From Eledone cirrhosa (lineage: Eukaryota): a DNA stretch of 64,000 bases. The notes under the pieces are model-generated. The model made no database searches, had not been told where the DNA came from, and saw only the letters and a program-made list of their open reading frames with translations. The first letter of the stretch is position 1, and the number at the start of each line of letters is the position of its first letter. The translations under genes and the position numbers were made by a program. Shown here piece by piece: positions 1 to 28,427 of the stretch. The stretch is taken from positions 182,652,001 to 182,716,000 of the forward strand of contig OZ024743.1 of NCBI GenBank assembly GCA_964016885.1, written 5' to 3'.

Positions 1-10
1 CCCCCCCCCC

Positions 11-159
11 GTGCATTACTGGTGCTTTATTTTATCGACCCCATAAGGATGAAAGGCAAAGTTAACCTTGGCGGGATTTGAACTCAGATCGTAAAGCAAC
101 GTAACTCTATACTGCAAAGCATGGCATCCGACCCTCTACCGATACTGCCAATCCACCGC
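11..159 (-). mobile_element. tRNA-derived SINE, same family as 52563..52744
   Basis: Minus strand has A-box-like TGGCAGTATCGGTAG, B-box GAGTTCAAATCCC and central GCCTTTCATCCTTATGGGGTCGATAAAATAAAG; near-identical to the copy at 52563; decayed relatives near 2530-2680, 48480-48620 and 48670-48830. Confidence 0.8.
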
Positions 160-860
160 ATCTTGTCTTAAATTCATCCTGATATTATTCTGTGTCAGTA
201 AAAATTAAATCTGTGGAATTTGTTACAAGTTAATGTCCTAACAAAGGAATGACTTAATATAGTTGAAATTTGAAGGTAACTTGAGTCATAGACTTCATCT
301 GTAATTTGATTTAATACCACTATCTATTCCTTGGGTGCCTTTAGTGAAGTACCCTCTGTTGCAAGCATTTAGGTCAAGTCTTCAGTCTAAGGATAATTGC
401 CTCACTTTCTCCCAATAATCTCATAGACCTTGGAATGGGTTATGAGCACTACCCTTCCACTTCTGACTGCAATTTTTTTTTAAATACTTTAAAAATATTA
501 ATGGTGGAAGCTCCTTATTACAACCATGGATAATGTTATCAACTGGTTATTGCTATGAAAATGGGTGGTTTCAAAACTCTTTATTTGCTTAATGTTATCA
601 ACCAGTTATTGTTATTGAAAAGGCTTCACACCAAAGTGATCTCAATAACTGGTTTCCACTGTATGTCATTTATTTGAGATTAATTCTCAAGCAACATAAT
701 TTATATACAAGTATCTACTACATTCATCTTTATTAAGATGACCAAATACACTAGAGTTAATTCAGAACAAACTATATGGTTAAAATAAAGTTAATAAATA
801 TAAAAATGTTGAAAGTACAACATTGTTAATCTGATTTAATAATTGTGTGTTTCTTTGCAG

Positions 861-968
861 GGGTTGAAATTGAGCCAGCTGATGGAGACCCATCAGAAGC
901 ATACAGAATTATATTTGATATCACATTTTTCTTCTTCATCATTGTCATTTTGCTGGCTATCATTCAGG
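861..968 (+). CDS. RyR: Ryanodine receptor exon: end of pore loop plus S6 helix
   Basis: ttctttgcag acceptor and gtaagt donor; translates (G)[35 protein letters not shown](G), colinear with Ry[37 protein letters not shown]. Confidence 0.95.
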
Positions 969-1237
969 GTAAGTCAGAAATAATTCAATAAAATAACTCT
1001 TAATTTGAAAATATATTTCAATGTTTAGATTCTACTGAATGATATTTTTCTTGAGGGCCTTTTTGAGGCAATGTTTTAAGGTTAGATGCCTTTCTTGGGA
1101 GCCAATTCTTTTCGTTGCCTCTTATGAAACACACAGATATGGTATACCTTTTCTAAATAAGATATACATGGTACATTTAAATGAAAACTGTGTATTCTTG
1201 CAGATGAAGAGAATGTTGATCTAAACCTTAGGTATGG

Positions 1238-1800
1238 TGGGAAGATGAAACGTGTAAAGACATTCTGTTATCTGGGAGACATCTTGAATGGAGAAGGTGG
1301 ATCGGACTCAGTGACAGTAGCTAGAATGATATGCACATGGAAGAGGAACTGTGTGGAATGCTGAAAATGAAGGGGAAGGTGTATGCTGCATGTGTGAAAA
1401 GTGTCATAATTTATTGGAGCAAAGCATGGATGATGTATGAGAAGCAGCAGAGAAGTCTGGAAGAATGTAAATGAGAATGATTTGGAGGTTGTGAATAATT
1501 GCTCAGGGAGAAGGGGATGAACAATGAATTGAAGAGGATGATGGCAATAAAGCCAGTAATGGAATGAGATGGTTGGGTCATATGTTGAGTAAGGATGAGA
1601 GTAACTGTGTGATAGGAGTGATGGAAATGAATGTGGAAAGAAATAGAAGAAGGGGAAGACCAAGAAAAACATGGCTAAAGATGATGGAGGAAGAAATGAA
1701 AGCCAGAGGACTAGTGATGAGGCTTGCAGATGATAAAGCAAAGTGGAGAAGCTTGTCATTGTGCCAGTAAAGCTAACCCCTTAAGGGAGAATGGCCTTAA
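1238..1800 (+). mobile_element. Decayed RTE LINE 3' fragment in RyR intron
   Basis: Relic motifs FCYLGD, MRWLGHML and RRRGRPRKTW with frameshifts. Confidence 0.75.
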
Positions 1801-2395
1801 AATGCTTATTGCTTTTTAAATTTGACTAAATAACACTATCTATAAATATTTGTTTATTCATCGTATATATTCAAATATAAGACAACACCTTATTGCAAAA
1901 ATATGGGCAAAAATCCAAACACCATTTATAAGCCAAGGCAGGTAATCTCTATATGGTCACACAATCTGCTAGAAATGACAGCTAAATCTCCCACAGATCA
2001 CACTCCACTGAGAAAGATAGGTAAAAATATAATCCTAGATATCCCTAAAAAGATGGGATCAGAGTAGCCATATTGAGCTATAAATAGCAGATTACACTAC
2101 TGTTGTGGGATGAATGCAACTATTTATTTTTTTGATTTACTAGCAAAATTTTCATTTTGGGTTACACAATCTATTACTATTTGAAAATTGTGTGCTACTT
2201 TTTATAAAATTGATCTGGCAACAATCATAGTTGAAATGTCTTTAATCCTAGATATGCTCAGACAGGGCTGATCTGGAGTTAATCCATAATAACAACAATA
2301 ACTAGAAATATACAGCCACTGCAACATGTTTGAATATAATAATATTACTCGATACTATCATTCATGATAATATATGGCTTTCAATTCTGCTACAG

Positions 2396-2460
2396 GTTTG
2401 ATCATTGATGCTTTCGGAGAGTTGAGAGATCAATTGGAGCAAGTGAAAGAAGATATGGAG
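2396..2460 (+). CDS. RyR: Ryanodine receptor exon
   Basis: tacag/gtaaat boundaries, phase matches previous exon; (G)LIIDAFGELRDQLEQVKEDME. Confidence 0.96.
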
Positions 2461-3453
2461 GTAAATTGATTCTTTAAACCATTTCTACTGTCACTGTTTT
2501 AACCCTTTTCTTTTAGCATTTTTAAGATGGTGAAGTGGCAGTGTCAGAACATCAGATAGAATGGTTTGTGGTTTTCATTCTGGCTGTATGCACTCTCTGA
2601 GTTCAAATTCCACTTATGCCAATTTTGCCATTCATCCTTTCGAGGTCGATATAAAAAATACCAGTCCAGTATTGGGGTTGATTCTTCATTTATATCTTAC
2701 TCTCTCTCTCTCTCTCTCCATGAACCACTTTACTGAGTACGTTTATCATATAAATCACCAACACCAGGAGGTTAGCTGAAAAACATATATGTATACTAAT
2801 AGAACACCTGCTAAAAATGCTTAATAATTTATTGATTACAACATTCTATGTAAAGATATTTGAATCTTCAATTTTCTTGACCTTCTCCTTTTTATCACAC
2901 AAGCCATTTCTGTATTTCATTTTACATTCATTGAAATCAATTACAGTAATTTTCTTCCATATTTCTTTTAATCATTATCAAATATATATATGCACTAAAT
3001 TATGATGACTTTGCTTTTTTAAATTGCATTTGTGATAGTATTTTACACGTTTTTATTGTATGTAAACTTCCCCCCTTTGTATTTGTCCCCTTCTTTTGTG
3101 CCCCTGTGGCTAATAAAGAAATATATCTATCTATCTAACTATCTGCTATTGGGATTTGTGGTTTGTTGTTCTTAGGTCAGATAGACCATCAACTAGAGAT
3201 GTGGTTAGGTAGGTAGATATATAGCTAAATAGATCGATAGTTATGTATAGAACCAAGTAGATAAATAGACAGATAGATAGCTAAAAATAACAGCAGGCAA
3301 TCTTCAACATGAGACTACAACAGAAACTACACTACCATTGTGGTTAACAGTAAGATTGAACTCAGGAACTAAGCACTTAAACTACTTAACCACATGTCTA
3401 TTCCTGTGCTTATTTTAGAAATGAATGTGATTATTTCCCTATTTTGTTTTCAG

Positions 3454-3554
3454 TCTAAATGTTTCATCTGTGGTATCGGCAAGGAATTCTTTGACAAAGT
3501 TCCGCATGGTTTCGACACTCATGTAATGAATGAACATAATTTTGCAAATTATAT
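3454..3554 (+). CDS. RyR: Ryanodine receptor exon, C-terminal zinc-binding motif
   Basis: tttcag/gtgagt boundaries; [33 protein letters not shown](M). Confidence 0.96.
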
Positions 3555-3823
3555 GTGAGTACATTATCAATCACTTTTTCTTTTGTGTCAAATACTAACC
3601 TTATACAAAGCTCACCCAAGACCTTCAATGAAATATTGTTTCCCACATCTGGAACAGTAAATACAACACATATAGATATCCCATATATATATATACAACA
3701 CATACTAGACATCCTAGATATATATACAATGATATATATTACATATACAGGTATCCTAGATATGTATAAAATAATATATACTACACATCTATATAAAAGT
3801 ATATATATATATTTATTAAAATA

Positions 3824-3899
3824 ACAGATTAAAGTTTAAGCAAAGAATCGCTGCTTTCACCCTTAACGGGATCTTCTGAAACTAAAAACATCAATCTGT
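3824..3899 (-). ncRNA. Type I hammerhead-like ribozyme with variant core (copy A)
   Basis: Sense sequence ACAGATTGA-loop-AGTTT CAGAAGA TCCC gttaa GGGT GAA AGCAG cgattct TTGCT T AAACT t TTAATCTGT; three helices around a CxGANGA/GAAA core; repeated at 28934..29009. Confidence 0.65.
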
Positions 3900-4394
3900 G
3901 AACGCAGAAGTAAATATTTCGAAAAACGTTGCAACCGAAGGAAAACAGGAAGTCGATACTTTGGTTCGTGAAGACGTTCCCTGGCAATGAATGGAAAACA
4001 GTGAAGATAATACGTCATTATGTGGAGCGATGAGAACAATTACACGCAAAGACAAAACCACGTTTATGGTATAAATGATGTCGTAGACTAATATTCTATT
4101 TAGGAAACCGAATGATTCTCGGCTTCGGAGTTAAGAATAAAGTAAATAAATTAGTTGAACGAAAATGACAGAGGTTATTAAAATCAATAATAATTAATAT
4201 ATACATACACGCATCAATATATGTACAAACACGTGCATACATGAAACCACCCACCATGCATGCAAATACATGCACGTACACATTAACACGCGCACACATA
4301 CGTAAACCTGCACGACACCTGTACCCGCACACAGGCGAACGTATACACCAAATACACATAGAAAATATATATATATGTGTGTATACATATAATT

Positions 4395-6192
4395 ATCATC
4401 ATCATCATCATCACCGTTTTACGTCCGTTCTTCCACGCTTGCATGGGTTAGACGGGTTGTCCTGTTGTGGGCAGTGTCTGGTCGGCTGACCATGCCTTGC
4501 TCATACAGGAACTGATCTGGCTTGATTTCTACAGCTGGATGCCCTTCCTAACACCAACCTCATTTACAGTGAGTGCTGGGTGCTTTTTCGTGGCGCCTAC
4601 GCGTCCACTTTACAGTGTGGGCTGGGTGCTTTTTTGCCGTGGCACCTCCACGGCCACCTTGCGGTGGGGGGGGGGGGGGCATATTGTTTATATGCTTCAG
4701 CATGTACCCATGGGAGGTCGGGTACCCAGTATTACTGCGTGACGCCAGAAGTCACGGTCGTGTGTCATTGACTTTGAGAGGTGTAGTTGGGTAAGGTCGG
4801 CTTTTATCACCTCATCCCAAGTCATCTTGGGTCTCCCCACTCCGCGGTTTCCATCAACTTCTAGTGCTCTGCACCTTTTTATGCAGCTGTCATCCTTCAT
4901 ACGCATCACATGTCCATACCAGCGTAACCGCCTCTCCTGCACGCAGCATTTGATTCCTCTTATGCTCAGTCTCTCTCTCAATTCCTTTATGCTTTGTCGT
5001 TCACGTATATTACTGTTACACATCCATCGGAGCATGCAGGCTTCGTTTCTCTCTAATCTACGTAAGTCTTCCACCTTCAGCGCCCAGGTCTCACTACCAT
5101 GCAACATCGCTGTTCGGATACACGCATCATACAGTCTGCCTTTCATTCTGAGGGAGAAGCCTTTTTCAGCTAGCAGTGGTAGTAGTTCCCTAAACTTCTT
5201 CCATCCCGTTCTTACCCTAGTTATTGTACTTTCTGAGCACCCACCTCCGTTGCTAATTCGGTCACCTAGGTAGCAGAAGCTGTCTACTGTTTCTACAGGG
5301 CCCTCCCAGAGATTGGTGGTACTTGTTTCCTGTGGCTGTTTGCTTGCTGTTTCAGCACAGCTGCTGCATGTGAATCCTACATTCTTAATTAAGCTTCCTG
5401 AGATCCCGCTACATCTCTTGTGTACCCATTGTTTGCATTTGGGGCAGAGAATGGAGTTCCTACCTACACCTTTCCTACATACTGAGCAAGGCCATTTCCC
5501 TGAGGGGATCTGGGTTCTGTTTTCTCGTCTACTTACAAGGACCTTAGTCTTTGTCATGTTGACTTTGAGGCCCTTTCTCTCTAGTCCCTGCTTCCAGGTT
5601 TGGAATTTATTCTCTAGTTCTACCATAGATTCAGCTATGAGTGCGAGGTCATCAGCATACAGGAGTTCCCATGGGCATCCGGTCTTAAACTCCTCCGTTA
5701 TTGCCTGCAGGACTATGATGAACAGGAGAGGGCTAAGAACAGAGCCCTGGTGGACCCCAACCTGTACGCTAAATTCCTCGCTATACTCATTGCCAATCCT
5801 AACTTTGCTGACTGCTCCCCTATACATGGCTTGTACCGCTTTCACAAGCCATTCATCTACTCCTAGTTTTCTAAGAGCCCACCAGATTACTGCACGTGGA
5901 ACTCTGTCAAAGGCTTTCTCAAGGTCGACAAATGCCAAGTAGAGTGGCTTACTTTTAGCTAGGTACTTTTCCTGTAATTGCCTCACAAGGAAGAGGGCAT
6001 CAGTGGTGCCTTTCCCTGGTACAAACCCAAATTGCATCTCGTCTATATTCACCCGGTCCCTAATCAGCTGTGCTATAACTCTTTCTGTTACTTTCATGAC
6101 CTGGTCCATCAACTTTATACCTCTATAGTTTCCTCTATCTAGTGCATCGCCTTTACCTTTGTAGCAGTTGACAATGATGCTACTGCACCAAT
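4395..6192 (-). mobile_element. Young 5'-truncated RTE-clade LINE (RT, PHD finger, C-terminus, 3' tail) antisense in RyR intron
   Basis: Uninterrupted frame with YRGIKL, QFGF, FVDLEKAFD, GVHQGSVLSP, YADD, YLGD, RLRWYGHV, GRPKMTW; tail ends in (GAT)n; the first ~78 aa of the listed ORF are microsatellite read-through. Confidence 0.95.
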
Positions 6193-6608
6193 TATATAAA
6201 CGTATATAAATACACACACATAAATACATAAATAATGCACACACACACACATACCTACAGGTAAATACACATATGTTCACCATACGCATCAACCAAAACA
6301 CAAAGTACACATATACACACCTTACATACGTGCATACACGCATACACACATACACACACAAACACAAATACACATATACACATAACCATATACACATATA
6401 CCAGTATATATAATATAATATATACACCTAGAACAAATACAAGCCTATATATGTACGAGAAAGTATACATACCAACACAAAACATACAGGTAAGGTATAC
6501 TTACCTATACAAATGACAGCTATGGACACAGTTTTTCTTTAAATTAAATCATTAAAAACTTATGGCTTGTTGTTTTCATCTAATAAAAATCCTTATATCT
6601 TTTGATAG

Positions 6609-6660
6609 GTTCTTCTTAATGCATCTTATCAACAAACCAGACACAGAGTACACTGGACAA
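6609..6660 (+). CDS. RyR: Ryanodine receptor exon
   Basis: tttgatag/gtatgt boundaries; (M)FFLMHLINKPDTEYTGQ. Confidence 0.96.
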
Positions 6661-7310
6661 GTATGTTTTTCTTTCTGATTATTTGTTATTATTTTACTTT
6701 GTCACTCCTACTTGTATTATTTATGTTATTAACTTCTTCAAAGGGATTCCTATAATTAAACACATTCACTACCTTTACTAGTTTATTATTGTGTGTGTGT
6801 TTCTGTCTGCCATCTTTATCCATTGACATCCACTTTTCCTTTTTTTCATCTAGGATATGTTTAATAAAATACCAGTCAACTACTGGTGTCAATACATTTA
6901 CCCAGTGGCCTTGTTTATGTTAGAAATTATATGCATGGCTTTGAGCCTATGTTAGAAATTAATATTTCTTCAGTCATTATATTCCTTCTTCTCAAATCTC
7001 ATTTTTCATTTAAGTTAATTATTATATTCTGGCAAGTCAATGAAGGAGCCTCTATATGATCTCCCAGCCTGCTTGAAACAGCAGAACAATCTCCCTGAAA
7101 TCCCTCCATGTTGTCTTTAAAAAGAAAGGACATTGGATAATGTAGTCCTGGAAAACAGAAAAACATATTGGATGATAGGACGGTCATGGTCTCAATGTCT
7201 GCTATAAGATTTATCTGGATATATATTTCATCAAATTGCATTTTTCTAGAAATTATTGTTTTAATTATATGCTTTAATATATTGTGAAATTGGTCTTTTT
7301 TATGTTCCAG

Positions 7311-7409
7311 GAAACCTATGTTTGGGAAATGTATCAACAGCGCTGCTGGGACTTTTTCCCAGTTGGTGATTGCTTTAGGAAACAGTATGAAGATGAAGCT
7401 TCTAGCTGA
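7311..7409 (+). CDS. RyR: Ryanodine receptor terminal coding exon
   Basis: ttccag acceptor; [32 protein letters not shown]-stop, the typical RyR C-terminus. Confidence 0.97.
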
Positions 7410-8305
7410 AAACAGAGCTGATCCATTTAACTGTGATTGATGTTAGGTAGTCTATCAACTACAGGTCAAGAGATGTTCTTACCCTAATGATGGACCACAG
7501 ATACCATCTGAATTTTATAAGACAAAGATAAAAGTATTTTGACAACAGACAATTTCTGAAACAATTACAACAATTATATCCACAAATAGAACATTTCAGA
7601 GCTGCCTCTGTAAGTTTGTGTGTATTTGTGTTTGAATATATGAGGTCTGGTATTCTGGAAGTAGCTTTAAATGTACATGTGGATCTGTCTCCAGCTATTC
7701 ATCATGGAGACTATAAAGCAGAACTGTGGCCAAACATACCTTAAAAGAAAATGCAAATATATACATGTATTTTAATTTTTGTGTTTGATAACAATACTTA
7801 ACCACTTTGATTCTTCTGATTCAAGCGCCCCCCCCCCCCCTCCCATCCTTCTTAATTGCAAATTTCTTTGAGATTTTAGTCCTTACCTTTCTTGGACCTT
7901 ACTCTTTTCTTAAATTAAACAAAACAAATTTCTGCACGTGTCAATACAGATATAAATCAAAGAAAGAAATGAAATATTGTTGAAAAATAAACAAACCCAC
8001 CAAATTTTCTTATGATAGATTTTTATAAGTATTTTTTGAACTATATGGAAAATAAAAATAAAAAAATCCAGAAAAATGGAGATATTGCTATAATTTGATA
8101 TTTAAAACTTTTACCCTGATTTTCCATTTATGAAGTTTGAAACGGAGAACTTCTGAATCCAGTTTGTAAGTTCTCAGGTCCAGCTTTTGTCCTTTTCAAA
8201 AATGAAAAACAAAAATAAAGATTTTAAAAATTGATTTTTTTTCCCCTAACTTATTGCATGTTTTCTGGACTTTTTTTTCTACCAAAATACTAGTTGTTTA
8301 TAAGT

Positions 8306-8308
8306 ATG

Positions 8309-8401
<93 letters not shown>

Positions 8402-8413
8402 TATATATATGTG

Positions 8414-8487
<74 letters not shown>

Positions 8488-8595
8488 ATGTGTATATATA
8501 TATATATGTGTGTGTGTGTGTTTATATATGTGTGTGTGTGAGAGTGTGTGTGTGTGTGTATATATATATATATTTATTTATTTATTTATTTATTT
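8306..8595. repeat. Compound (TA)n/(TG)n/(TTTA)n microsatellite, probably within the RyR 3' UTR
   Basis: Directly visible; AATAAA hexamers occur on both sides, so the UTR end is not resolved. Confidence 0.9.
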
Positions 8596-10404
8596 ACTAA
8601 TTGTGATATTAAAGTATTAATTAAGAAAATGACATTTTGGCAGATTGCATAGATATAAACTAAGTAATAGCTCAATACTGATTTGATAGTGTGATATATA
8701 TTTTTCAATAGTAGGTTTTCTTAGAATAGGTTAACAACTAGAAATAAAGTTATCTATATTTCTTTAAACATGATGGTCTATTATAATTAATATATAACTA
8801 CTCAATGGTTCCTATGTTTTTGTACCACAATTGATAAATTGTGGTGAAATAAAACAAAACTGCACTTGTGATATCATTTTAATTCCTTATGGCTGCAGCC
8901 ATTATAATACAGCAGTTACTTCTGGGAAACTGAGTTTGAAACTTGGTTTCAATTAGAACAGCTTCACTTATTTTTGAGAATGCCCCGAGTGAAAGGTACA
9001 AATGTTACAACTCTCCATTTCCCCTTCTTTGTACCTTTAACATTTCTTGCCTAATTAAGAAATAATTATTTTCACTCTCTTTCTTTGTTTCCATAAAAAC
9101 ATTTCTTCACTTTCTCTTCAACCACCATCCATTCCCTTCCAAAATGAAGTAAGGATGGACAACAAAGAAATTAAGAATATATTTTGTCACACTCTAACTT
9201 GTAAACTTATGAAACATTTCTTTACAAACATTTTATTCCATGAGTTGGCTGTTTCTTTGGAAATGTACCAAATAAACTTTCGTTGTTTGACTTGTTACAC
9301 AATATCTTACACAACTGTAATATTCTAACAACTAAAAGTCAAGACAAACTGATTAAAAAGTTGTTTAGAAATTATTTTGTCCAATCTTGTAATTTTTTTT
9401 TTTTTTCAGCTGCTAAGTATATTCCAGTGTTGTAGAGACCAGAACTATTGCATACATAATCAGTGCTTTCTTAGCTTCCATGTTGATGTCAAATTTTCTA
9501 AAAGTAGAAAGAAGGCTACAGGAAGATGCACTTATCTTGTAAGATGGTACTACTGGTGTCACAATGAAAAGCTCCCAGCTTACCCTGTGAGGTCATAATG
9601 CCAGAGTTACAATAACATGCTTTCCGTACACACAACAAAGTGATTGGCATTAGGAAGGGCATCCAGCTGTAGAAAACATGCTCCTAGTACATGCTGTAAA
9701 GTTATTGACATTAGGAACAGCATTCAGCCATAGAAACCAAGCCAAACAGGCCATACAAGCAGACCTGACACACAACAACCCATCTAACCTGTGCAAACAT
9801 GGAAAATAGACATTAACTGGTGATAATGATTACCAGTAGATCAGGATCAAACTATTTGTGATAGCTAGTGTATGACAATTCATGTGGTTAAGAAGGCAGC
9901 TTGACAATCATGAAGCTCAGGTTCAATCCCACTGCATGGCATCTGATACCATAGTCATATATTATCCCAAACTTTCACTGAGATTGAGTAGACAGAAAAG
10001 TGATTGGAAAGTCATCTGATTGACTGTACCTGTAATTCAAAAGCCAGATTTTTTATACACTGTATCATGCTGATTCTACCTAAATATTATATTACGAATA
10101 CATGTGTCTGAAGCATTAAATATTCTAAAATAACTACATACAATCCCTATATAGAGGTATGAGATCTGAGTAGTCAGCAGATTAGATTATTGGCACTATT
10201 TTTGTTTATTTTTTTAGTCTTTTAGATTGTATTGATTGTATTCATAGCCTTCAAATGCCCCCTGAAACTGGTAACTATGACGCAGTTAATATTCCTATTG
10301 AATGGTTGCCAGGTATAGGAAGAATCAGATATTTTATACAAGTGAAATAGCAATTGTAATTCTAATTTCAACCTTCAAATTTGCAAAAATATTAACCCCA
10401 ACAT

Positions 10405-11832
10405 TTCATCATCATCATTTTTACGGCTCTTTTTCCCTGCTTGCATAATTTGGACAGGTCCTTCTCAATACAGCAAATCTTACTTGTTGCATCCTTTCAT
10501 CAACTCTTCTGTGAGTTTCAGTGATTTGAGGTCAGCTCTCACAACCTCTGCCCAGGTCTTCCTTGGTCTACTTCTATTGCAGCTTACTACCACTCATGTT
10601 TCCTGGCACCTCTTCACCCACTTCAGATTCCTCTTAAACCCAGTTTCTTCCTCAACTCATTCAAGCTCTGCCTTTCTCTTACATTTACGTTGCACATCCA
10701 ATGAAGCAAGGCTACTTCATTTCTCTCCAGCCTACATGTCTTCTGCAGTCACTGCCCATGTTTCATTATCATGCAGCATTGCACTTCACACACTGACATC
10801 ATGTAGGGAGAAACCTTTTGTTGTTAACAGTGGGAGTCACTCTCTAAATTTCTTCCACGCTATCATTATTCTAGTTATTATGCTCTCAGAGTACCCTCTT
10901 CTGCTGCTAATTAGGTCACCGAGATAGAAGCTATTAACCACTTCGAGACATCCTACATGCAATTGGAAAAGATTTATATCATCAACACTCTTCTCCTTGA
11001 TTACCCCAGGGGATCTTTTACATACAAAGTCTTCTCTTCCTATTAGTCTACCTGTTATCCAACTCTTGCCACTATCATCATTTGGTTTAATGTCTTCTTT
11101 ACATGTCACAAGCATTGGACATTTTGGTAGCCTCTTTCAAATCATTTCTTCAGAGTTAGGTTTTAGTCCAGCTTCCAGGCTTATGTGAGTGTCCTCTTCC
11201 CATGTCTTATGTGGGTGCCCTCTTCTCCATCTACCAGGGTCCACAATTTTGATACATCGATGTATCTACCCAATTTGTCCTCAATTTTGGTGGCTCAACA
11301 CTCGCTACCATACAACAGCACAGATCGAACACAGACATTAACCATACTGCCTCTTGTTTCTGCTGTATCTGCCTTTAATTCTGTTACACCTTTTATGTAC
11401 CCAGTGCTCACATCCCTCACAGAAGAGTTGCTTCTGACACCAGAGTGACAAACACCACAAGGCCACTTTCTAGTTTCATTCAGCTTGCCCAGGTAGGAGT
11501 CATAGACAATAATTTTTGTCTTCTTCATGTTGACCCACAGACCCTTTTAATCCAGATTTGACTTCCTGACTAATAGTTTTGCCAGGAGTGTATCCAGGTT
11601 TTCAATGACAAAGTCATCTGCAAACAATAGTTCCCATGGGCATCCATTTCAGAACTCATGGAAGAGAGCCACCACAATAATGAAGAGCAATGGGCTCAAC
11701 GCAGACTCTTGATGTACACCAACTTCAACACTGAAGAAGTCGCTATATTGGTTGCCCACTTGCATTTTACATACATAGATTGCACAAGCTGGACAACTGA
11801 TTTATACCAAGCTTCCTTATTGCCCACCATAG
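10405..11832 (-). mobile_element. Old rearranged RTE LINE (RT and 3' part)
   Basis: Relics WWAIRKLG, CPWELLFADD, KWPCGVC, FYLGDLIS, WKKFRE and a (GAT)n tail near 10405. Confidence 0.8.
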
Positions 11833-11833
11833 T

Positions 11834-14150
11834 ACTTTTTCTTCTTCTTGTCATGTGGCATATGCACAATAGTTAGAAAGGTAGATCGCGATTGGTGAGC
11901 TAGACAAAAGCATCATTTGTATTATTATGGATTGCCTTCAGGCCACAGTAAAAACATCTGAGGGGACAATGCTGAACAACATGCAACACTGTTTAGTCAG
12001 GTTCCCCATAGCCACATGCTAGGCTGTCTTTCATTTTCCATCGATGGAGATGATGGGCTGTCCTAGCATGTGTTGTGTGGATCAATTAAAGGACACCCAT
12101 TGCTTTCTAGGATGGTCGAAACCAGTTGGTTTTGATGTTGGATCCTGGAAGAGGTCTTGATTGGCAAATTTGGACTCATTCCGTGATCTTCACCACTCTT
12201 TCTTCAAATCAAGGTTATTGTTTTGAAGAGTCTTCATTGATTCCCAGAATGGTTTGTGTGATTTCAAGCACATATTGTGAAGGTTTTCCAGGTCTTCATG
12301 GGTGGGAAGGTTGGGCTTGGATTTGGTAAGAGGTGCTGCTTCATGGATGATCTGACACCACATGTGAGAAGGAGCTATATGAGAAAGGGTAGGCAGCCAC
12401 TGAGTAGGTGTAGATTTCAGTGTGCCAGATACTATTCTCATTGATGAGTTGAGGATGGTGCCAACTTGCTTTGCATGGCAGCTACCTACCCAAACGGATG
12501 AACAGTATTCTGCAACTGAGTATGAAAGTGCTAAGCACACAGTTCAGAATGTATGTACATCAGGCCTCCAGCTATTTTCTGCTAACTTGCAGATGATATT
12601 AATCCTGGTCTTGAGCTTTCCGGCAACCCTCTTTAGATGCTCTTGATAGGTCAGGCTACAAACCAATGTTACACCAAGTTTGTCTGATGCTGAGATGGAA
12701 GCTGAAGTTTTCCTGGTCATATCAGTCATGTAGATGTTAAAGAGCATTGGTGCTAGGAGGGAACCTTGGGGAAGGCCATCATTCAGGGTTCTAGATGAAT
12801 TTGTTTGACCTCCTAGTGACACTCTGAATCTTCTGTTACTGAGTATAGAGGCAAGGATGTTCACAGTTGCCTGGTACTTGATGATATGACAGGCCTTCAG
12901 GAGGAGGCCGCCTCTTCATACAGTATATATGCAAAAAAGAGATCAATCAGAGCATCCCGTATTGAGACCTCATTGGTAGCCAGCCTTGATGAAGGTAGTA
13001 AGGGCAAATACTTGATCAGTGCAACTCCTTTGTAGTCTGAAGCTTGCTTGTTATTTAAGCAGGGTTGGTTCTACTAAAGGACCAAGCCTAACCAAGAGGA
13101 GCTGTTCAAATAGCTTGTAAGAGGTACAGAGGAGAGAGATTGACTGGTAGCTTGCAGATCGTCTGCAGGTTTCCCAGCTTTCAGGATGGAAATGACCTTG
13201 GCTTCTCTCCAGATCGTTGAGATAACTCCAGTTGAGTGGATGACTGTGAAGAGTGAAGCCAGCCAGTCATGGACAATTGGACCAAGATTCTTAAGGAATT
13301 CAGGATATAATGTCAATGATTCCTGCTTCCTTGCCTTCTTTGGTGGATAAAAAGTCAGTATCTATCTTACTTATGGCGTAAAATTTAGCAAGTGGGTATC
13401 CTTGGTGAAGATGAGTAGGCTGCTGAGAGATTCTTATGGACTTCTTGGTGTGCTTCTTTGGTTGAAGGTACATTAGAGTTGAGAAGTAGACATGATGCAA
13501 CTGCATTAGTAGTTACTTTTTGTGGCAAGTGCTGAATGGGAGATGCTGCACCAAGTCACCTAAGGAGATTCCATGCTTTCCTAATAGAGTGAGTATAATC
13601 CAACTCTCCACTGATTTTTGCTATCATGTCCATCTAGCTGAGACAAGAGAGTCTAAGTGTTCCGTAGCAATGTCTAGATCACCTGAGGTTTCATAGCTCT
13701 TGACAAGTGCTTCAGATTCTAGGAGCCAACATGGAGTGAAAGATTGACAGAAATCTTGCGGGATATGATTCTTGGCAGCATCCTTCAGAATCTTACAGAA
13801 TGAAGTATAATTCTTGGGAACAGGTTCCAAGTTGATGATTTGTTCCTCTACCTCTGAGCTGATGGATTCCCTGTCAGCCTTCCAGAATGTTCACTATTGT
13901 AGTGGCTTGGATTATGCTACAGGAATCTCAATGCCGATGTGTATCATAGCTGGTCTGTTAGCTGTGGGGGAAGTGAGGGAGTATCTCGCAAGAAGCCTGA
14001 ACAGGATTTGAAGAGGTGGTAGAGGTCTGGGTTGTAATCCTTCCAGCGACTAGAATGGAATGTGCCAGGTTGTTTGGCATCATGGAGAAGATAGTGGTCA
14101 CTGGTGCATGTCTCCAACTGTTCCCCAGTCAAGTTGTCTGTGGTATAGCT
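11834..14150 (-). mobile_element. Decayed Vingi-like (Ingi/I group) non-LTR element
   Basis: APE end HDAKQPGTFHSSRWKDYNPDL, WREAKVISILKAGK, GLPQGSLLAPMLFNIY, ALSYSVAEYCSSVW, TLKSTPTQWLPTLSHIAP, decayed C-terminal CCHC, (AAG)n tail; clade assigned from remembered motifs only. Confidence 0.7.
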
Positions 14151-14169
14151 TCATGAAGAGAGGAAGCTC

Positions 14170-14745
14170 ATAGACGATAGTGATAGTCAGGTCCCCAACT
14201 TTCACAGTAGAAATAGATATGTCATACCAGTTTCTAGCCAGGCAGATAGAAACTTATCAAACTTAGCACAGACAAGTGGGTCTTTGAGCTTCTATATTCT
14301 TCTTTTTGGTATTAAGGGTTTAAGAAATGGCTTTTCAAACTTCAGGCTAAGGCCGCAGGTTAAAAGCTTGTACTGCTGCACACATTCCTCTCCTGGAATT
14401 ATTTTAGCATCTTTGACTGCCCATAAGTCTCTCTTCCATACTAGGATGAAATCAATTTGACTAAGGTTTCCACTTGAATTATAAGTTATAAGATGACTCT
14501 CCCACTTACAGAAGAATAAATTAACAAAACTGCAAACTCAAGCAACCATTCACCTTCAGCATGGGGCTCTCCCTATCCAAAACCACTATGCACACCCTCG
14601 TAGCCATCAGCATATTGTCCAATGTGGTCATTCCAGTACCCATGCAGCAACAGGAACTCCTGATCTTCATCTCAAGATAGTACCATGAGGAGATCATCAT
14701 AGAAAGCATCTTTTGTAGTTTGGTCATGACGAACCTATGGGACAT
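14170..14745 (-). mobile_element. RTE LINE AP-endonuclease relic
   Basis: Relics NAEGEWLLEF, TYNSSGNLSQIDFILV and DAKIIPGEEC. Confidence 0.65.
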
Positions 14746-15103
14746 AAATCGTGAGCAAAGTTAGATTTTTTTCAAATTTTTTCCAAACCTATATTCAACT
14801 GAAAAGCCGTCTTTTAGCTTTCAAACCTTCCGTCTCCATATTTTCTTGAATATCTTGTTCCATCTTGTGTTTGTCACTAATAACTAGCTTGTGTTGGCTG
14901 GCACATTACTTACTATTTATTACAGTCTATCTAAAATGACCAGACTTTCCAACACCTCACACACTTTCCATTTTATCTCTCATTCAATCCAGCATCATTA
15001 AAACATTGCTTTTGCAGTTAAAATAACCTGTGTAAACAATCAATTCAGTTATATTTGGCAACAGACTATTTTAAACTATTTACCTTCCCTCATAGTCACC
15101 TTG

Positions 15104-17800
15104 TCAGCAAGGTGTTATGGAAGATCCCACTCAGGATCCTTAGAGCGACCTGGGTGCCGGTAGCCGATGCCCTTACTTCCTCGATTCAGAGCACCCTGGA
15201 CTCCAATTGAGCCAGCGACTGGGAGTGACTCTTCTATTTTGTCCCACTCACCCTCGGCCTCCCCAGCACTGGCGCTGACCGAGGCGGCTGGTCGACGGCA
15301 GCCTTTATCAAGGCCAATGTTTCGTCCTTTGGGCAAGCGCCCATTCCAAGCATGCCCAAGGGCGCCACACACCCACTCTCAGGTGCCCCCCCCCCCAATC
15401 CTCCACCCCTGAGGCCAGTGCCAAGAATTTGCGTGACCGCGTAAATGCCAAATTAATCATGGGTGATGTCTCGGCCGCAGTCAGAGTGGTTGCCTCGGAG
15501 GACACTGTCCTCCAACCCATCGAGGAGGTCCTGGATGCCCTGTGACTCAAGCACCCTGATTCACCCAAGATCTCAGACCCATACCCCCAACCAATCCCTA
15601 CTTGCTCCTTGTGGCTTCTGACGCAGACATCATGTCCGCCATCAAGTCCTTCCCAGATAGCAGCAGCGGAGGTGCTGATGGTCTCCAACCTGGCCACCTC
15701 AAGGAGTTGCTATCCCCACTCTCCACTGAGGCCGGGCGCCCCCTTCTGAGTGCAAGTGTGGCACTCACCAGCTTATAGGCTTATCCATGGCGTCCTGGAT
15801 CCTCACGCCCAAGGCCTCTTTTTTTCGGCTAGCCTGACCACTCAGGAAGAAAGGGGGTGGCATACGCCCCATCGCTGTGGGCAATGTCTTCTGGAGGCTG
15901 GCTGCCAAGGTGGTCTGCAGGTCCATAACACCAGAACTGGGTGAGGAGTTCAGTCGGCGTGTCCAGTGGCTGTGAGGGGGCCGCACATGCAATCAAGCAG
16001 TTCTTCAACAGCTGCCCACCAGAACCGGCATCCAGGCACCTCATTGTCAAGCTTGACATAAGGAATGCCTTTAACAGCATACGCCGGGACCATCTGCTCG
16101 ATGCTTGCCTCAGCCGAGCCCCCTCTGCTACCCTCTGGCCTACCTGTTGTATGCAGCCCCGAGCATGATCCTTGCTGCTGATACGGTCATACCTTCGGCC
16201 ACTGGAGTCCAACTGGGTGACCCTTTGGGCCCCCTCCTGTTTGCCCTTGGTATAGACTAGATTGCCCAAAGTATCACAGCTCCTCACAACGTTTGGTATC
16301 TGGATGATGTTACGTTGGCAGGCCCGTAGAGACTGTCTGCCATGACCTACAATCAGTGATTCCTGCCCTGGCGGGAGACCTCCAGGTCAACTCGTCCAAG
16401 TCGGAGGTGGTGAATGTCAGCGACGATGCTGAGAGCTTTGCAGCCTCCACTTCGGACGTGCGGTCCATTCTCCACCAGGTACAGGTGACCGTAAAAGAGG
16501 ATGTCCTCGTCCTTGGGTCACTGATCCACCCACCAGCCATCCGCTCCACCATCAGATCCAGACTCCAGCAACTCATGACCCTCACGAGCCAACTGGGCTT
16601 GATTGATGGCCACCCAGCACTGTTCCTGTTGAGGAACTGCTTCACCATGCTGGAGCTCCTCTATAGCCTTCACAGCACTCCGTGCTACACCCACGCATCT
16701 CTCCTCACTGACCTCGATACTTGTATTCGAGCAGCAGCCGAGGAGATATGCAACGTCAGGTTTGACGACATTGGATGACTAACAGGCCACTTTACCTGTC
16801 AGGTATGGTGACTTTGGCCTCCGGTCTCTGATCTCACTGGCTTTGCCGGCGTTTCTTTCGTCGGTAACCTCATGCCGCGTCCTCGTCAGCAGGGTTCTCC
16901 AAAACACAATGGAACCCTCTGTGATCAGGGAACATGAAGCCACCTGTGAGACGTGGGACCAGCTGAGACTTAGCCCAGTAGACATCCCTCCTCCTCCCCT
17001 GCTGACGTCAAGTCCACCCCAAAGCATTTGGGATGCCATCCAGTGCAGCCTGGCTTCAAACAGGCTCACGTGCCAGCACCGCCTTGCCTGTTTTCATGCG
17101 ATCTCCAAACCCCACGGTGGTGCCTGGCTCCATGCCTTGCCCTCCTTCTCCACTGGCATGCAGCTAGACAACAATAGCCTGTGCATCAGCGTTTCCTTGA
17201 GGCTTGGCCTCCGAATCTGCGAGCCACACCAATGTCGCTGTGGATCCACCGTGGACTCTTTCGGCCTCCACCCGCTTTCCTGTCGCCACAGTGCCGGCTG
17301 CCTTCCACGCCATGGTACTCTAAATGAGGTCATAAAGCATGGCTTGGATGCTGCAGGCTTCCCTTCCCAGCTCGAGCCAGTGGGGCTGGACCGAGGGGAC
17401 GGCAAACGGCCAGCTGGCATGACCATCTTCCCGTTCCACTGTGGCAAACCCCTCATCTGGGATGCTACTTGCACCGACACCTTCTGTAGCCACAGCCTGG
17501 TGCAGTCTGCGACTAACCCAGGTTCTGCTGCACGTTGGGCTGAGGAGGCCAAACTCTTCAAATACCAGTCACTCTCCGACAGGTTTGTGGTTGTACCCTT
17601 GGCAGTGGAGACTTCTGGTGTCCTTTGCCCTAGGGCTACTTACCTACTCACCACCATAGGTGCTGAGCTGGCCAGTCGCAGGTGTGAGCCTCACAAGCTG
17701 GAGTGGTTTTCCAGCGCGTCTCCCTTCCCGTCCTCCGGGGAAACGCCTTCTCTATTCTGTCTGCCGGGGCTGTGGGGAGACCACCAATATGATTGACTGA
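15104..17800 (+). mobile_element. CRE-clade non-LTR retrotransposon (RT plus restriction-like endonuclease), inactivated
   Basis: RPIAVG, KLDIRNAFNS, GVQLGDPLGP, WYLDD, then zinc knuckle CRCG..DSFGLHPLSC, RHGTL, KRPAG, IWDAT, K..KY, PLAVETSG; several stops and frameshifts; visibly more GC-rich than flanks. Confidence 0.88.
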
Positions 17801-19149
17801 CTTGTCATTTTATCAGTCAGATGTTTTTAGTCATCATTCGAACAATGATATTTGGTTGAATTCTTCTCTGTTCTAGAGCCTGCTCCATTTTTAACATTTG
17901 GTATTCAAAAATTATATTTTATTATATGTTTGTTACTGGCAGAGATTATATAAATGTTAAAGGTCAAGAACACTCTTCAGCTGTGTCAAAGACATGTCAA
18001 TCTCCCTAATGTTGGTGACCTACATGAAAAACGTACCCAATACACTTTGTAAAGTGGTTGGTGATATGAAGGGCATCCTGCCAAACAAAGAATTGATAGG
18101 ACTCTTCAGCTGTGTCAAAACGGAACAACCTCCTTGCAAGATGCAGGCTCTTGCTCACCTGAGCACCGAGTATTGTGCAACAATGTAAGCAAGCAAGATG
18201 CAGACCCCTAGCCCATCTTAGAGATCAGTAGTTCTGTTTGAGTCCTGACACAGACTGTAACGACCCATCCAACCCTTGCTAGCAGAAGTAACAAACATTA
18301 AATGATGATGATGATGATGATGATGGCTTTGCGAGATTTTAAAATAATCCTAATTAAAAGCAATGAATGGGATTATTTCAGCATTTTTTTTTTAATTCAA
18401 ATACAGCCGCAATTTACAAAAAGTTACATGTGACTGTATGATCAAAGGCTGAAGCCAAAACCTTATAAACACAAAAGGAATGTAACATTCTTTAACCACA
18501 TTACAATTAATGTTTTTATTGTTTTTTATCAGATACACCAATGACTTTATTTGAAGAACTTCTTAGAGTTAGTTGTGTAAATACAGTCTCTTCAAACATT
18601 CATTCCACTGATGCATGAAAATCTCAGCATGCAGTTGCCAACTCAGTAGCCTAACTGTGACAGGGGGTGGAGCTGTTCCAAGTGACACATTTATGGAAGC
18701 AGCCCTTTTGGGTCTGTTGTATATTTGAGTATGTAGGTGGAGATGGAGTGGTAAACTCAAAGACTGCCCGGATGGCACACACTCTAACTATGCCACTGTA
18801 CCAACTTATTTATGCTGTTTGAGGACTTGTCTGTTAATGCTGGACTGTTGTGGGTTGGAGAGGGTGCTCCTAATGTTGAGTGATTAGCCCTAGCCAATCA
18901 ACACCTGGGAGGATTTTTAACTGAGAACTCAAAAGAGCCAGAACAAATACTGCAAGGCATCTAATTTGATTCTCTAACAATTCTGCTGACCCATACTGGC
19001 ATTTTATTAGGGGAATTGGAACTCATGATAAATAAGAGTAGATATTGAACTGCTTCGTGTCTTAGAACCTGTGCCTTAGCTCTGACAGTGCAAGGCTTTC
19101 TTTTCAACACTCCAACAATTCTGCTTGTAAATTTATCAATGGTTCTTTG

Positions 19150-19305
19150 CAGTGGTATAGCTAGTGTGTACAGTGGTATAGCTAGAGTGTGTACAGTGGT
19201 ATATCTAGAGTGTATACAGTGGTATAGCTAGAGTGTATACAGTGGTATAGCTAGAGTGTATACAGTGGTATAGCTAGTGTGTGTACAGTGGTATAGCTAG
19301 AGTGT
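19150..19305. repeat. ~22-bp minisatellite, about 7 copies
   Basis: Unit TACAGTGGTATAGCTAGAGTG(TG/TA) visible in tandem. Confidence 0.9.
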
Positions 19306-20427
19306 GCATAGTTTGGGGCAGCCCTATAGCAGTAATTTGATACTCTCCTTAATAGAGTTTCTTTCACTCCATGAAGCGGCCACCAAGAAGCTGACCTTGG
19401 TGGCCTCGTAGATAAGTTTCCACTATAAATCGGTTTTCTAGATGCCAATATGTCTGAGATTTTGACATAGCAAATGGCCATTTGCTTATTCTTGTTTCCT
19501 GGAGTCAAATGAGGGAATACTGATAAATAGCCTGCTCCCAGTCAATCCAGGTAATTTCAGAGTTCATATCAACCAGCTATGATGTAGTGGTCAACTGTTT
19601 CACACACCAACCCCTTTGAGTCTCTCTCTCTCTTACCTCTCCCTCTCTTGGTCTCTCTCTCAGCCAGGTCAGCAAAATTTATCTCACTAAGAGAAGTTTG
19701 GTGAATACATTTTTAATAATACCTTTGCAAGCATAATATATACATAACATAATTAATTACACAACATGCGGAATTTCAGGATCATATAAACATAACATTT
19801 TAAAAAATTGTTCTAGCATAATCTTTAGCTCGGACTCTGTTAATTTTTAATAATTTCTTTTTATTCTATCTCTCTCTCTTTTATTCATGCTTGCTTAGTG
19901 TAATATAGTTTTCTGTACTACATGTGATACAGTACTGGTGTTTGATTTATGGTGAGTAGAGCACGTACCATTAAAGAAGAGCCCATGAATATCTGGCATC
20001 CCCCACCCCACTACAAAAAACTACCAACACTTCTGAATTTTAGAAAACTCCTGCGCTCCACCTGAGGCTCAAAAGCTTCAACCTTGCAGAATCTCTTTCG
20101 AAGGCTCTGATGAGGAGCAATATTTTATAAGTCCCAAAGTTAGAAAAAGTTTGGATAAACATAATTTCCACTACCACCATCTCCATCTGTAGAAAAGTGT
20201 AAGTTTTAATACTATACTCTGCTATACACACATAAATATTACAATTGAGTGAATAAACTTGTTGATTTATCTTATTTCTTTTAAATTGTTTTATCGCTGA
20301 TTTCAGCCAATGTGATGCTCTGTATTTACATTTATATGTATGAGTATATAAATATAAACACAGAAACACACATCTACTCACACAAGTATAAACATATTAT
20401 TGTGTTAATGTTTGTATGAATAATAGA

Positions 20428-20555
20428 AGGGCCCAACAGGGTGACCCACTCGGACCTGCACTTTTCACACTGGCATTGATGACATCACCTAGATGGGAGT
20501 TGACTTGGATCTGAATGTCTGGTATCTGGATAATGCTTGCTTGGTGGGGTCCTCC
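20428..20555 (+). mobile_element. Short CRE-like RT fragment
   Basis: QQGDPLGPALFTL and NVWYLDN, matching RT motifs at 16200-16310 but divergent in DNA. Confidence 0.7.
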
Positions 20556-20689
20556 AGACAAGGTCCTTGTAACTGTGATTTCTCTCCAGCCGCGGTATAT
20601 CCTCTGCATTTAGCAGCCATGTCCCACTGTCATGCAATATCACATATCTCTCAGAGAAAATCCTTGTTGAGAACAGCAGTAGTAGCGCC

Positions 20690-22260
20690 CTAAACTTTTT
20701 TCTAGCATGTCTCTATTCTAGCTACTATACTTTCAGGGTAATCCCCCCCCCCCTTCACTATTAATTAGGTCACCTATGTTGCAAAAACTATCAACTACTT
20801 CTATGGTACCTGCCTAAGATTGGAAAAGGTTCATTTCACTGCTGCTCACACTACCTATTATTATTGTGCATCTACCACATTCAAAGTCTATCTTTTCCGT
20901 TGGTCTGCCTACAATCCCACTCTATCTCTGGTCTTCCCATGCTTTACATTACGTACATTGTATAGAATTTCTAACTGCTCCTTTTCTCCATATCAAACAC
21001 AGCTACTTCCTTGATAGAAGTGTACTCCTTCCTAAGACTTTGGTCTCAGCTAGGTTTATTTTGAGCCCCTTTCATTCTAAGTTCTATTTCCAAAGGAGGA
21101 ATTTTTTCCCAAGCCCTTCTACGGAACCAGACCATTAGCATATAGTTCTCATATAAACTCCTATGAACAGCCAGTCTTAAGCTCCTCAGTTGTGGCCTGG
21201 AGAACTATAACAAAAAGGAGGGGGGTAGGAAATGAGCCTTGAAAATCACCTGCACATTGAATTCTTCACTAAACTCATTACATACTCTCACTTTATTAAC
21301 AGTACCAATACATGGCCTGTATTGCACTCACAAACCACACATCTACAACCAGTTTCCTTCAGGACCTCCAGAGAATAGACCATGGTACTGTCTTTTCCAG
21401 ATCTGCAGAATCTAAGTGTAAAGGCTTACACTTAACTAGGAACTTCTTTTGAAGATCTCTCACTAAGAGATCATCTGTGGTGCTTCTTCCTGGTACAGAA
21501 CCAAACTGCATATCATCTAATTTTATTCTTTCCTTAATTAACTGTACTCTTTCCAAGAGACCCAGGAGCAAGATGGATGTATAACATCAATGAATTCAGT
21601 TGGTTTTGCTTGGGGATCCAGCCAGATCATTTAGAAACAGTTGCTTCCGATAGGACTCTCAGGAAGGCATGTCCAAGGACTCTGCCCACACGACACTTCC
21701 AGGAATGTGGATGAAGAAGAACACTGTCACTTTCATAACTTGATCCATCAGCTTAATGCCTAACATAGTTGCTCCTTTCTGGAGCATCTCCTTTTTCCCT
21801 TGTAACAATTGATTATACTGTTACATCATGTATTATCTGATTGACTACGTGGAGGACTAACTTGACTTATACTTCACTCAATCTTCACAATTATCATCCC
21901 GTACTAGTGTTTCTTGACCTCTTTCTTCTGAGCAACATTGAGATTGAGTATGCCCGGGTCATTCCAAACACATTTCTTCCCAATATCCCAATTAACACCA
22001 ACACATTGCTTCACAATGTGAAACATTTCACGCTGTTGATTCTCATGTCACAAAACCTCTTGCTTTCTGCTTCTCTCTATATGCTAAGTAAACCTGCCTT
22101 CTAGCTTCTCTTTTACTTACTTGGTAGAGTTCTTTCCAGTCTGTCTATGCATCTCTTAGTTTTAATGGCTCTACCTACAGTACTGTTCCAACACCAAGTC
22201 TCCTTTTATCTGGCTGGTGTCTTTCTGATGCCACAGTTCTCATCAGTCAGTTGGCACATG
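20690..22260 (-). mobile_element. Decayed RTE LINE internal region
   Basis: Relics MQFGSVPGRSTTD, DLEKT, LQATTEELKTGCS, VVDSFC. Confidence 0.8.
21555..21722 (+). mobile_element. 3' end of a different RTE lineage (Expander-like) nested in the decayed RTE
   Basis: RPRARWM..LGIQPDHLETVASDR..LPTR, (GAA)n tail, flanked by the degenerate direct repeat actgtactctttc / actgtcactttc. Confidence 0.55.
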
Positions 22261-22299
22261 GAACTTTCCATTTGCCCTCTATTTCATATATATCAAATG

Positions 22300-24023: not shown

Positions 24024-24124
24024 TACCAGAAAACTGCATAGATCCAACATGAATAATCAATATTAGTATGTAGAATGCATCATTTTATTTTAATCATCCT
24101 CCCAATACCATCACCTCAAAAAGG

Positions 24125-25708: not shown

Positions 25709-25767
25709 CTGTTAAAACAGGAACAAATATCTACATTAAAGCATGTTAGATTAATTTTCTTGACTAC

Positions 25768-28392: not shown

Positions 28393-28427
<35 letters not shown>

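What the first reader, a model, noticed from the sequence alone, without database searches (positions are those of the whole stretch)
861..880. Ryanodine receptor appears to have Val instead of the invariant selectivity-filter Asp
Seen: the exon begins GG GTT GAA ATT GAG, i.e. (G)-V-E-I-E, and aligns without gaps to RyR GGGIG-D-E-I-E through FDITFFFF. Established: that Asp (D4899 in rabbit RyR1) is conserved in RyRs and IP3 receptors, and its neutralisation lowers conductance and Ca2+ selectivity. Inference: this is either a natural pore variant or paralog with altered permeation, or a one-base (GAT to GTT) error or rare allele. A-to-I editing cannot restore Asp from GTT. The rest of the C-terminus is intact. 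The upstream exon lies outside the window.
Basis: partly seen in the sequence, partly recalled or inferred. Interest (0 to 1): 0.75.

Follow-up and report, generated by a model that had tools for sequence, protein, structure and literature searches.

The report
Headless duplicate of ryanodine receptor tail
The valine is in the sequence, but it sits in a headless, rearranged second copy of the end of the ryanodine receptor (calcium channel) gene, likely a dead duplicate that likely moved as a DNA circle, while the complete gene elsewhere in the genome keeps the normal aspartate, so this is likely ordinary decay and not a new kind of channel.

Summary
The Val codon (GTT, 863-865) is there and aligns to RyR1 D4899. 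The genome holds this exon twice. The C2 copy reads GAT (Asp) and belongs to the only gene found with N-terminal and RyR-repeat domains. The window lies on C4 in a copy 0.42% diverged from C2 that keeps only the last 16 exons (592 codons). It is cut in mid-exon and fused, without a gap, to a satellite from the far end of the ~240-kb donor region: a circular permutation. Against C2 it has 5 missense and 0 silent changes, an in-frame 3-bp deletion and a +1 frameshift (the last in an error-rich contig tip). Contigs of three runs of one sample read A at 864; contigs cannot exclude T. No RNA could be laid. Verdict: likely an unprocessed pseudogene fragment, likely moved via a circular intermediate; not a pore variant of the working RyR. 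Earlier notes describe similar broken duplicate fragments of other genes in this genome; none of the 8 shown (of 110) concerns RyR.

The parts
863..865 (+). GTT (Val) codon at the RyR1 D4899 position; GAT (Asp) in the C2 gene (single difference T/A at 864)
861..968 (+). Pore-loop/S6 exon (12th of the 16 exons kept in the duplicate), AG/GT intact
2396..2460 (+). Exon 13 of 16 (S6 end, GLIIDAF), identical to C2
3454..3554 (+). Exon 14 of 16 (CFICG), identical to C2
6609..6660 (+). Exon 15 of 16, identical to C2
7311..7409 (+). Last coding exon with TGA, identical to C2
4391..6190 (.). 1.8-kb repeat insertion in an intron, present on C4 and absent at the C2 site
42535..44364 (.). 74-bp satellite, 24.7 copies here against about 116 kb at the matching C2 site
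1..64000 (.). The whole window lies inside the duplicated block (matches C2 392.28 to 392.10 Mb, minus strand, 97-99% per HSP). The block extends beyond the window: part B, C4 182637718-182724141 (exons 8-16, the +1 G, fold-back end in a retroelement); part C, C4 182873742-182886326 (exons 1-7, minus strand, ending in mid-exon; T>P, D>E, D>H, 3-bp deletion, K>E); then the 19-kb 48-bp satellite, the C2 392089416-392095537 piece and a retroelement tail to about C4 182913251.

Best explanation
The Val codon lies in a 5'-truncated, intron-containing duplicate of the last 16 exons of the ryanodine receptor gene, which is likely a non-functional pseudogene fragment that likely arose when a ~240-kb piece of the C2 locus was copied as a circle and inserted on C4, while the complete gene on C2 keeps Asp. 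Shown: two copies, 0.42% apart; Asp in the full gene; truncation in mid-exon; head-to-tail junction; permuted order once contig B is turned round; several lesions. Inferred: (1) one donor break fell inside an exon upstream of S1 and the other in a 48-bp satellite, and the ends were joined through a 6-base microhomology; (2) the circle opened in a retroelement it carried and entered C4, leaving element tails facing outwards at both ends; (3) without promoter, first exons and most of the coding sequence, the copy has drifted free of selection, and GAT>GTT is one of its neutral hits. About 0.8 for 'dead duplicate'; about 0.6, given that, for the circle route.
For: Two exon copies, C2 with GAT. 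PF02026: 4 of 4 matches on C2 (10 candidates scored). PF08709: one match on C2 at 392.607 Mb, three on C5, none on C4 (12 scored). tblastn with P0046 finds upstream exons continuing on C2 and none in the 60 kb before the window on C4 beyond the block; on C4, homology upstream stops at C2 392309535 in mid-exon and runs gap-free into the satellite that on C2 lies at 392059860-392088909, then into C2 392089416-392095537. Divergence: 212 of 50,865 non-tandem-repeat columns and 53 of 12,494. Coding differences over 1,781 bases: 5 missense, 0 silent, one 3-bp deletion, one +1 G; neutral expectation 3-6 missense and 1.5 silent, while a rough Poisson test gives P(5 or more)=4e-4 at an assumed dN/dS of 0.1. 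K>E hits a column with K in 144 of 147 aligned homologues (1 S, 2 uncovered). Flanks: a 3-kb probe on the B side is single-copy; probes before the first gap and on the C side have no second full-length copy, only repeat hits. Contigs of X1-X3 read A, and their 0.94 word share equals the 0.936 expected if only the C2 version is held.
Against: No RNA was laid (X4: nothing laid), so silence is not shown. All splice sites of the 16 kept exons are intact and in-frame Met codons (62, 70) precede S1 (codon 132). The +1 G lies in a contig tip with 16 small indels in 6,042 bases against 13 in 44,823 elsewhere, so it may be a sequencing error. 5:0 is also compatible with positive selection (P=0.32 under neutrality). 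T at 864 was seen in no run. T>P and D>E were not polarised. The permutation needs contig B to be turned round, which I infer from B and C abutting the same gap position as on C2. The opening is not a clean cut (1.4-kb overlap, fold-back, 195-base hairpin). Both copies break at the same assembly gap, a feature also seen with false duplications.
Confidence: 0.8

Rival explanations
1. Assembly artefact: the C4 block is a falsely retained second haplotype of the C2 locus or a chimeric contig, or T864 is a consensus error.
For: Both copies break at the same gap. 0.42% divergence could be allelic. Contigs of three runs of one sample show only A, and the word share fits C2 alone. Contig B's tip is error-rich. 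False duplications are usually bounded by gaps (PMC9516828, passages).
Against: The outer ends are not gaps: the exon-satellite junction and both retroelement ends are contiguous sequence leading into non-C2 flanks. An allele of an essential single gene is not expected to carry 5 missense, 0 silent changes and a codon deletion. Position 864 is 15 kb from the tip, where small indels are at background. Contigs collapse minor variants.
Confidence: 0.08
2. Expressed headless pore subunit: the C4 fragment is transcribed from a cryptic or satellite promoter, starts at Met 62 or 70 and makes a ~530-residue transmembrane-plus-tail protein with a Val filter that would leak or co-assemble with and damp the full channel.
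For: All six membrane segments and the C-terminal domain are inside the copy, splice sites are intact, and in-frame Met codons precede S1. C-terminal RyR1 constructs form channels (PMC5715910, passages), and a 656-residue C-terminal protein reached the ER (PMC2229395, passages). The frameshift may be a tip error. All five substitutions are missense.
Against: No promoter or first exon; the first exon remnant has no acceptor and abuts 19 kb of satellite. If the +1 G is real, translation stops in that exon, before the pore. K>E and the deletion hit the S2 region. No RNA evidence.
Confidence: 0.06
3. One reading: the working full-length RyR has Val, as a fixed variant or an allele, with the halves mis-paired across the shared gap.
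For: An assembly gap separates exon 7 from exon 8 in both copies, so the pairing of halves rests on scaffolding.
Against: The Asp half is gap-free with 326 kb of C2 sequence (391970501-392296818) and the full upstream gene is on C2. The Val half is gap-free with single-copy sequence placed on C4. Swapping the halves would need a reciprocal exchange of chromosome arms. All homologues with the pore segment have Asp; run contigs read A.
Confidence: 0.03
4. Real dead duplicate, different route: replication template switching, or a tandem duplication on C2 followed by transposition of a piece across its junction, or mobilisation by the Penelope-like element whose tails frame the insert. (Its confidence is part of the 0.8 above, not added to it.)
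For: Overlap, fold-back and hairpin at the ends. Both ends carry tails more like each other (98.4%) than like the C2 element (92-94%). Penelope elements have been reported to frame intron-containing host genes (PMC3846280, abstract).
Against: The order efghij-abcd is the diagnostic pattern given for circle-mediated duplication (PMC7188851, introduction). An RNA intermediate of over 100 kb with satellites is unlikely (inference). No target-site duplication can be read because the ends fall in TA microsatellites.
Confidence: 0.3

Closest known systems
eccDNA-mediated (circular-intermediate) duplication: Takahashi and Innan 2020, PMC7188851 (abstract, introduction, reference list read); cattle colour-sidedness, Durkin 2012 (seen only as a citation there)
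   Same: Donor kept, copy at another locus in circularly permuted order, head-to-tail junction absent from the donor.
   Different: A mollusc germline; the junction cuts a channel gene in mid-exon; the opening is complex (overlap, fold-back) and lies in a retroelement; the order depends on turning one contig.
Unprocessed (duplicated) pseudogene fragments in segmental duplications (general knowledge, recalled)
   Same: Introns kept, 5' part missing, near-identical to the parent, lesions at conserved codons.
   Different: Few lesions yet; the only frame-breaking one may be a sequencing error; silence not shown.
RyR1 D4899Q and C-terminal RyR constructs (PMC2668181, PMC5715910, PMC2229395; passages read)
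   Same: Same residue neutralised; similar C-terminal span (592 codons kept against 656 and 1,377 residues).
   Different: Those are engineered or vertebrate; here no transcript or protein is shown, and Val is not Gln.
Penelope-framed host gene copies in Adineta vaga (PMC3846280; abstract and first half of Results read)
   Same: Intron-containing host sequence bounded by retroelement tails in inverted orientation.
   Different: Insert here is about 125 kb on C4; no target-site duplication readable; the element is called Penelope-like from recalled motifs only.

Membership tests
Functional ryanodine receptor gene (C4 copy) | N-terminal domain (PF08709) and RyR repeats (PF02026) in the same gene | tested here: not met
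   matches on C2 (and C5), none on C4; homology ends in mid-exon
Functional ryanodine receptor gene (C4 copy) | GGGIGD filter | tested here: not met
   GGGIGV on C4, GGGIGD on C2
Functional ryanodine receptor gene (C4 copy) | Open frame through S1-S6 and the C-terminal domain | tested here: inconclusive
   +1 G gives a stop in exon 8 but lies in an error-rich tip
Unprocessed pseudogene fragment | Introns kept, intact parent elsewhere, truncated | tested here: met
Unprocessed pseudogene fragment | Loss of purifying selection | tested here: met
   5 missense, 0 silent, codon deletion; rough Poisson P=4e-4 at assumed dN/dS 0.1, small numbers
Unprocessed pseudogene fragment | No functional product | tested here: inconclusive
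   no contig of X4 laid; no raw RNA run of this organism listed
eccDNA-mediated duplication | Head-to-tail junction of the donor's ends, absent from the donor | tested here: met
   exon at C2 392309535 joined to the 48-bp satellite, 6-base microhomology, no gap
eccDNA-mediated duplication | Permuted order at an independent locus | tested here: met
   conditional on turning contig B, and on the scaffold placing it on C4
eccDNA-mediated duplication | Single clean opening of the circle | tested here: not met
   1.4-kb overlap, fold-back and hairpin; filed therefore as circle-like, not as a textbook case
False heterotype duplication (PMC9516828) | Duplicate bounded by assembly gaps | tested here: inconclusive
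   shared internal gap, but outer ends are contiguous sequence
False heterotype duplication (PMC9516828) | Haploid read depth on each copy, discordant pairs | not testable with these tools
   only run contigs were served for the holders
Penelope-mediated gene mobilisation | Element with RT and GIY-YIG endonuclease | tested here: inconclusive
   613-aa frame with YRDD and YFGST...RLYNH (motif meaning recalled); no Pfam or PDB hit; 246 homologues, the 120 listed unnamed or hypothetical, one with PF00078
Penelope-mediated gene mobilisation | Target-site duplication | tested here: inconclusive
   both ends run into TA microsatellites

The most novel reading that the evidence does not exclude
A circle-borne, very young duplicate gives this animal a natural pore-only ryanodine receptor subunit (about 530 residues, Val in place of the filter Asp, five missense changes and no silent one) that is expressed and joins full-length subunits, tuning conductance and Ca2+ selectivity of the heteromeric channel.
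Probability: 0.06. Interest if true: 0.7.

Novelty: new member of a known kind. Interest (0 to 1): 0.2.

Why it matters
It removes an apparent exception to a conserved channel residue and warns that RyR variant calls, gene models and read mapping in this genome are confounded by a 99.6%-identical partial copy whose two halves are likely scaffolded in the wrong relative orientation. The side result, a base-resolved, circularly permuted duplication between two chromosome-scale scaffolds with retroelement ends, is a modest example of a rearrangement route described in cattle, yeast and human. One search (ryanodine receptor + octopus + cephalopod: 11 papers, listing only) showed no paper on such a copy. 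It would matter more only if the fragment is expressed.

Tried and rejected
Insertion instead of substitution: rejected, the upstream exon ends GGGI-G^. Alternative Asp exon inside the C4 copy: none found by tblastn with 3 homologues over 184 kb or by the genome search (2 matches, 4 candidates scored). My first idea, a gap-bounded haplotig, was weakened when the outer ends proved gap-free. RNA: X4 (type not on record, share 0.18) gave nothing laid, which is no evidence; 4 of the 23 listed runs were laid, the RAD-seq and small-share runs were not; the upstream junction region was not read in any run. Crossover mapping in the retroelement: columns 392095535-392095735 are invalid because I mistook an inserted hairpin for an inversion, and I dropped them; beyond them the B direct arm follows C2 and the C arm follows the B inverted arm at most differing sites, but the inverted arm is C2-like upstream, so no simple single crossover is shown. 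Target-site duplication search returned only TA repeats. Pfam, PDB and Atlas gave no name for the element. The mafft alignment beyond window-extended position 234326 is meaningless (no homology) and was not counted. The frame test was mis-sliced and redone. No structure or complex prediction was run: it would not separate the explanations. No supplementary files were read; none is expected to bear on the claims.

Full report
Observation. The exon at 861-968 starts GG GTT GAA ATT GAG after a canonical acceptor and reads (G)[25 protein letters not shown]. The window is G000 C4:182652001-182716000. The upstream exon lies 1.3 kb before the window and ends RAGGGI-G^ in phase 1, so the junction is GGGIG-V-EIE. 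Residues 2-35 align gap-free to rabbit RyR1 4900-4933. Asp is at this position in 120 of 120 homologues listed (of 215 hits). Of 231 proteins held later, 198 have D, 31 lack the anchor motif and 2 are models missing the pore segment. In RyR1, D4899Q cuts conductance from 801 to 164 pS and PCa/PK from 7 to 1 (PMC2668181, passages). The best homologues of a neighbouring exon are molluscan; earlier unchecked notes call the genome octopod.

A second copy with Asp. The genome search found the exon twice (4 candidates scored). The C2 copy reads GAT. RyR-repeat matches are all on C2 (4 of 4); N-terminal-domain matches are on C2 (1) and C5 (3; likely the IP3 receptor, inferred), none on C4. C2 exons continue upstream in order. 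The last 16 C2 exons splice to 592 open codons with GT-AG sites throughout. C2 is the complete gene as far as these searches show; I did not read its whole 5' part.

Anatomy of the C4 copy (coordinates = C4 position minus 182652000, so they extend beyond the window). In 344 kb read there are two 200-N gaps, at -14482 and 221542. Contig part B starts at the first gap, 241 bases from where C2 has its own gap, and matches C2 392296577 down to 392094115 until 72141; a 74-bp satellite is 1.8 kb here and about 116 kb on C2. Beyond a fold-back, B continues in sequence not found at the C2 locus; one 3-kb probe there is single-copy. After the second gap, part C matches C2 392297021-392309535, that is the seven exons just upstream, in the opposite orientation. 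B and C thus abut the same intron position as the C2 gap, and I infer that B is scaffolded the wrong way round. Part C ends in mid-exon and passes without a gap, through a 6-base microhomology, into 19 kb of a 48-bp satellite that on C2 lies at the far end of the region (392059860-392088909), then into C2 392089416-392095537. With B turned, the order is 392094115 to 392309535, then satellite to 392095537: a circular permutation of a ~240-kb donor, the pattern described for eccDNA-mediated duplication (PMC7188851, introduction). Both outer ends lie in one retroelement (613-aa frame, RT-like and GIY-YIG-like motifs; 'Penelope-like' is my recalled label). Its tails face outwards, are 98.4% alike and 92-94% like the C2 element, and end in TA repeats, so no target-site duplication can be read. 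Inverted and tandem arrangements and microsatellite targets are typical of such elements (PMC8557442, passages). The opening is not clean: 1.4-kb overlap, a fold-back and a 195-base hairpin.

Divergence and lesions. The copies differ at 212 of 50,865 aligned non-tandem-repeat columns in B and 53 of 12,494 in C, 0.42% each, plus indels such as a 1.8-kb insertion at 4391-6190. Over 1,781 coding bases there are five missense changes (T>P, D>E, D>H, K>E, D>V), no silent change, a 3-bp deletion and a +1 G. K is present in 144 of 147 aligned homologues, and the deleted column is F in 89 and L in 53. D>H is in a variable linker; T>P and D>E were not polarised. Neutral drift predicts 3-6 missense and 1.5 silent changes; at an assumed dN/dS of 0.1, five missense changes have P=4e-4; 5:0 has P=0.32 under neutrality. 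The +1 G would stop translation in its exon, before the pore, but lies in a contig tip with nine times the background rate of small indels (16 in 6,042 against 13 in 44,823 bases), so I do not rely on it. Position 864 is outside that tip.

Reads. Of 23 runs listed, three of one sample hold 0.94 of the words of 500-1500, which equals the 0.936 expected if only the C2 version is present. Laid on 820-1000, each gave one 1,002-base contig with A at 864; X4 gave nothing. Contigs collapse variants, so this shows A, not the absence of T. It fits a duplicate that is hemizygous, absent from that sample, or simply collapsed, and it also fits an artefact. No RNA evidence was obtained.

How it most likely works. 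Shown: two copies; Asp in the complete gene; Val in a headless, permuted, lesion-bearing copy. Inferred: a recent break in an exon and a break in a satellite were joined, the piece entered C4 through a retroelement, and the promoterless copy drifts. Dead duplicate 0.8 (circle route about 0.6 of that), artefact 0.08, expressed headless subunit 0.06, Val in the working gene 0.03. Against an artefact: gap-free novel junctions, non-C2 flanks and the missense load; for it: the shared gap and the lack of T in run contigs (criteria from PMC9516828, passages). For the headless subunit: intact splice sites, in-frame Met 62 and 70 before S1, and C-terminal RyR1 pieces that form channels or reach the ER (PMC5715910; PMC2229395; passages); against it: no promoter or acceptor at the satellite junction, and further lesions.

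Comparison and verdict. It works like an unprocessed pseudogene fragment made by circle-like duplication; it fails the tests for a functional RyR gene and meets two of three features of eccDNA-mediated duplication. Earlier notes report broken duplicate fragments of other genes in this genome (unchecked, not used as support). New member of a known kind; interest 0.2.

Noticed in passing
G000 C4 182637718-182873541 (contains the window): This 236-kb contig is likely scaffolded in the wrong orientation: its start and the next contig's start abut the same RyR intron position as the gap on C2.
   Followed up: partly
window 42535-44364 and C2 392123616-392239761: A 74-bp satellite is 1.8 kb in one copy and about 116 kb in the other, although the flanks differ by only 0.4%: very fast array expansion or loss, or an assembly collapse.
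   Followed up: partly
window 4391-6190: 1.8-kb repeat insertion present only in the C4 copy; related pieces at 96-97% lie elsewhere in the block. A different insertion is C2-only near window 29122.
   Followed up: partly
L040:3453-5291 (C2 392093953-392095791): 613-aa open frame of a retroelement with RT-like and GIY-YIG-like motifs and an Asn-rich linker, no Pfam hit; an oppositely oriented related copy at 86% lies about 1.3 kb away.
   Followed up: partly
C2 392328578-392328495 and 392323013-392322927: Two similar EF-hand exons of about the same size in the full RyR gene, both hit by the same query regions: either consecutive EF-hand exons or mutually exclusive ones.
   Followed up: no
C2 392302671 and 392302662: Two AG acceptors 9 bases apart at the start of the large S2 exon; possible in-frame alternative splicing.
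   Followed up: no
G000 C4:312330488-312332207 and C4:312526162-312527855: The same repeat matches recur 196 kb apart with like scores, hinting at another local duplication on C4.
   Followed up: no
G000 C5:43416327-43478227: PF08709 matches without PF02026 matches on C5: likely the IP3 receptor gene.
   Followed up: no
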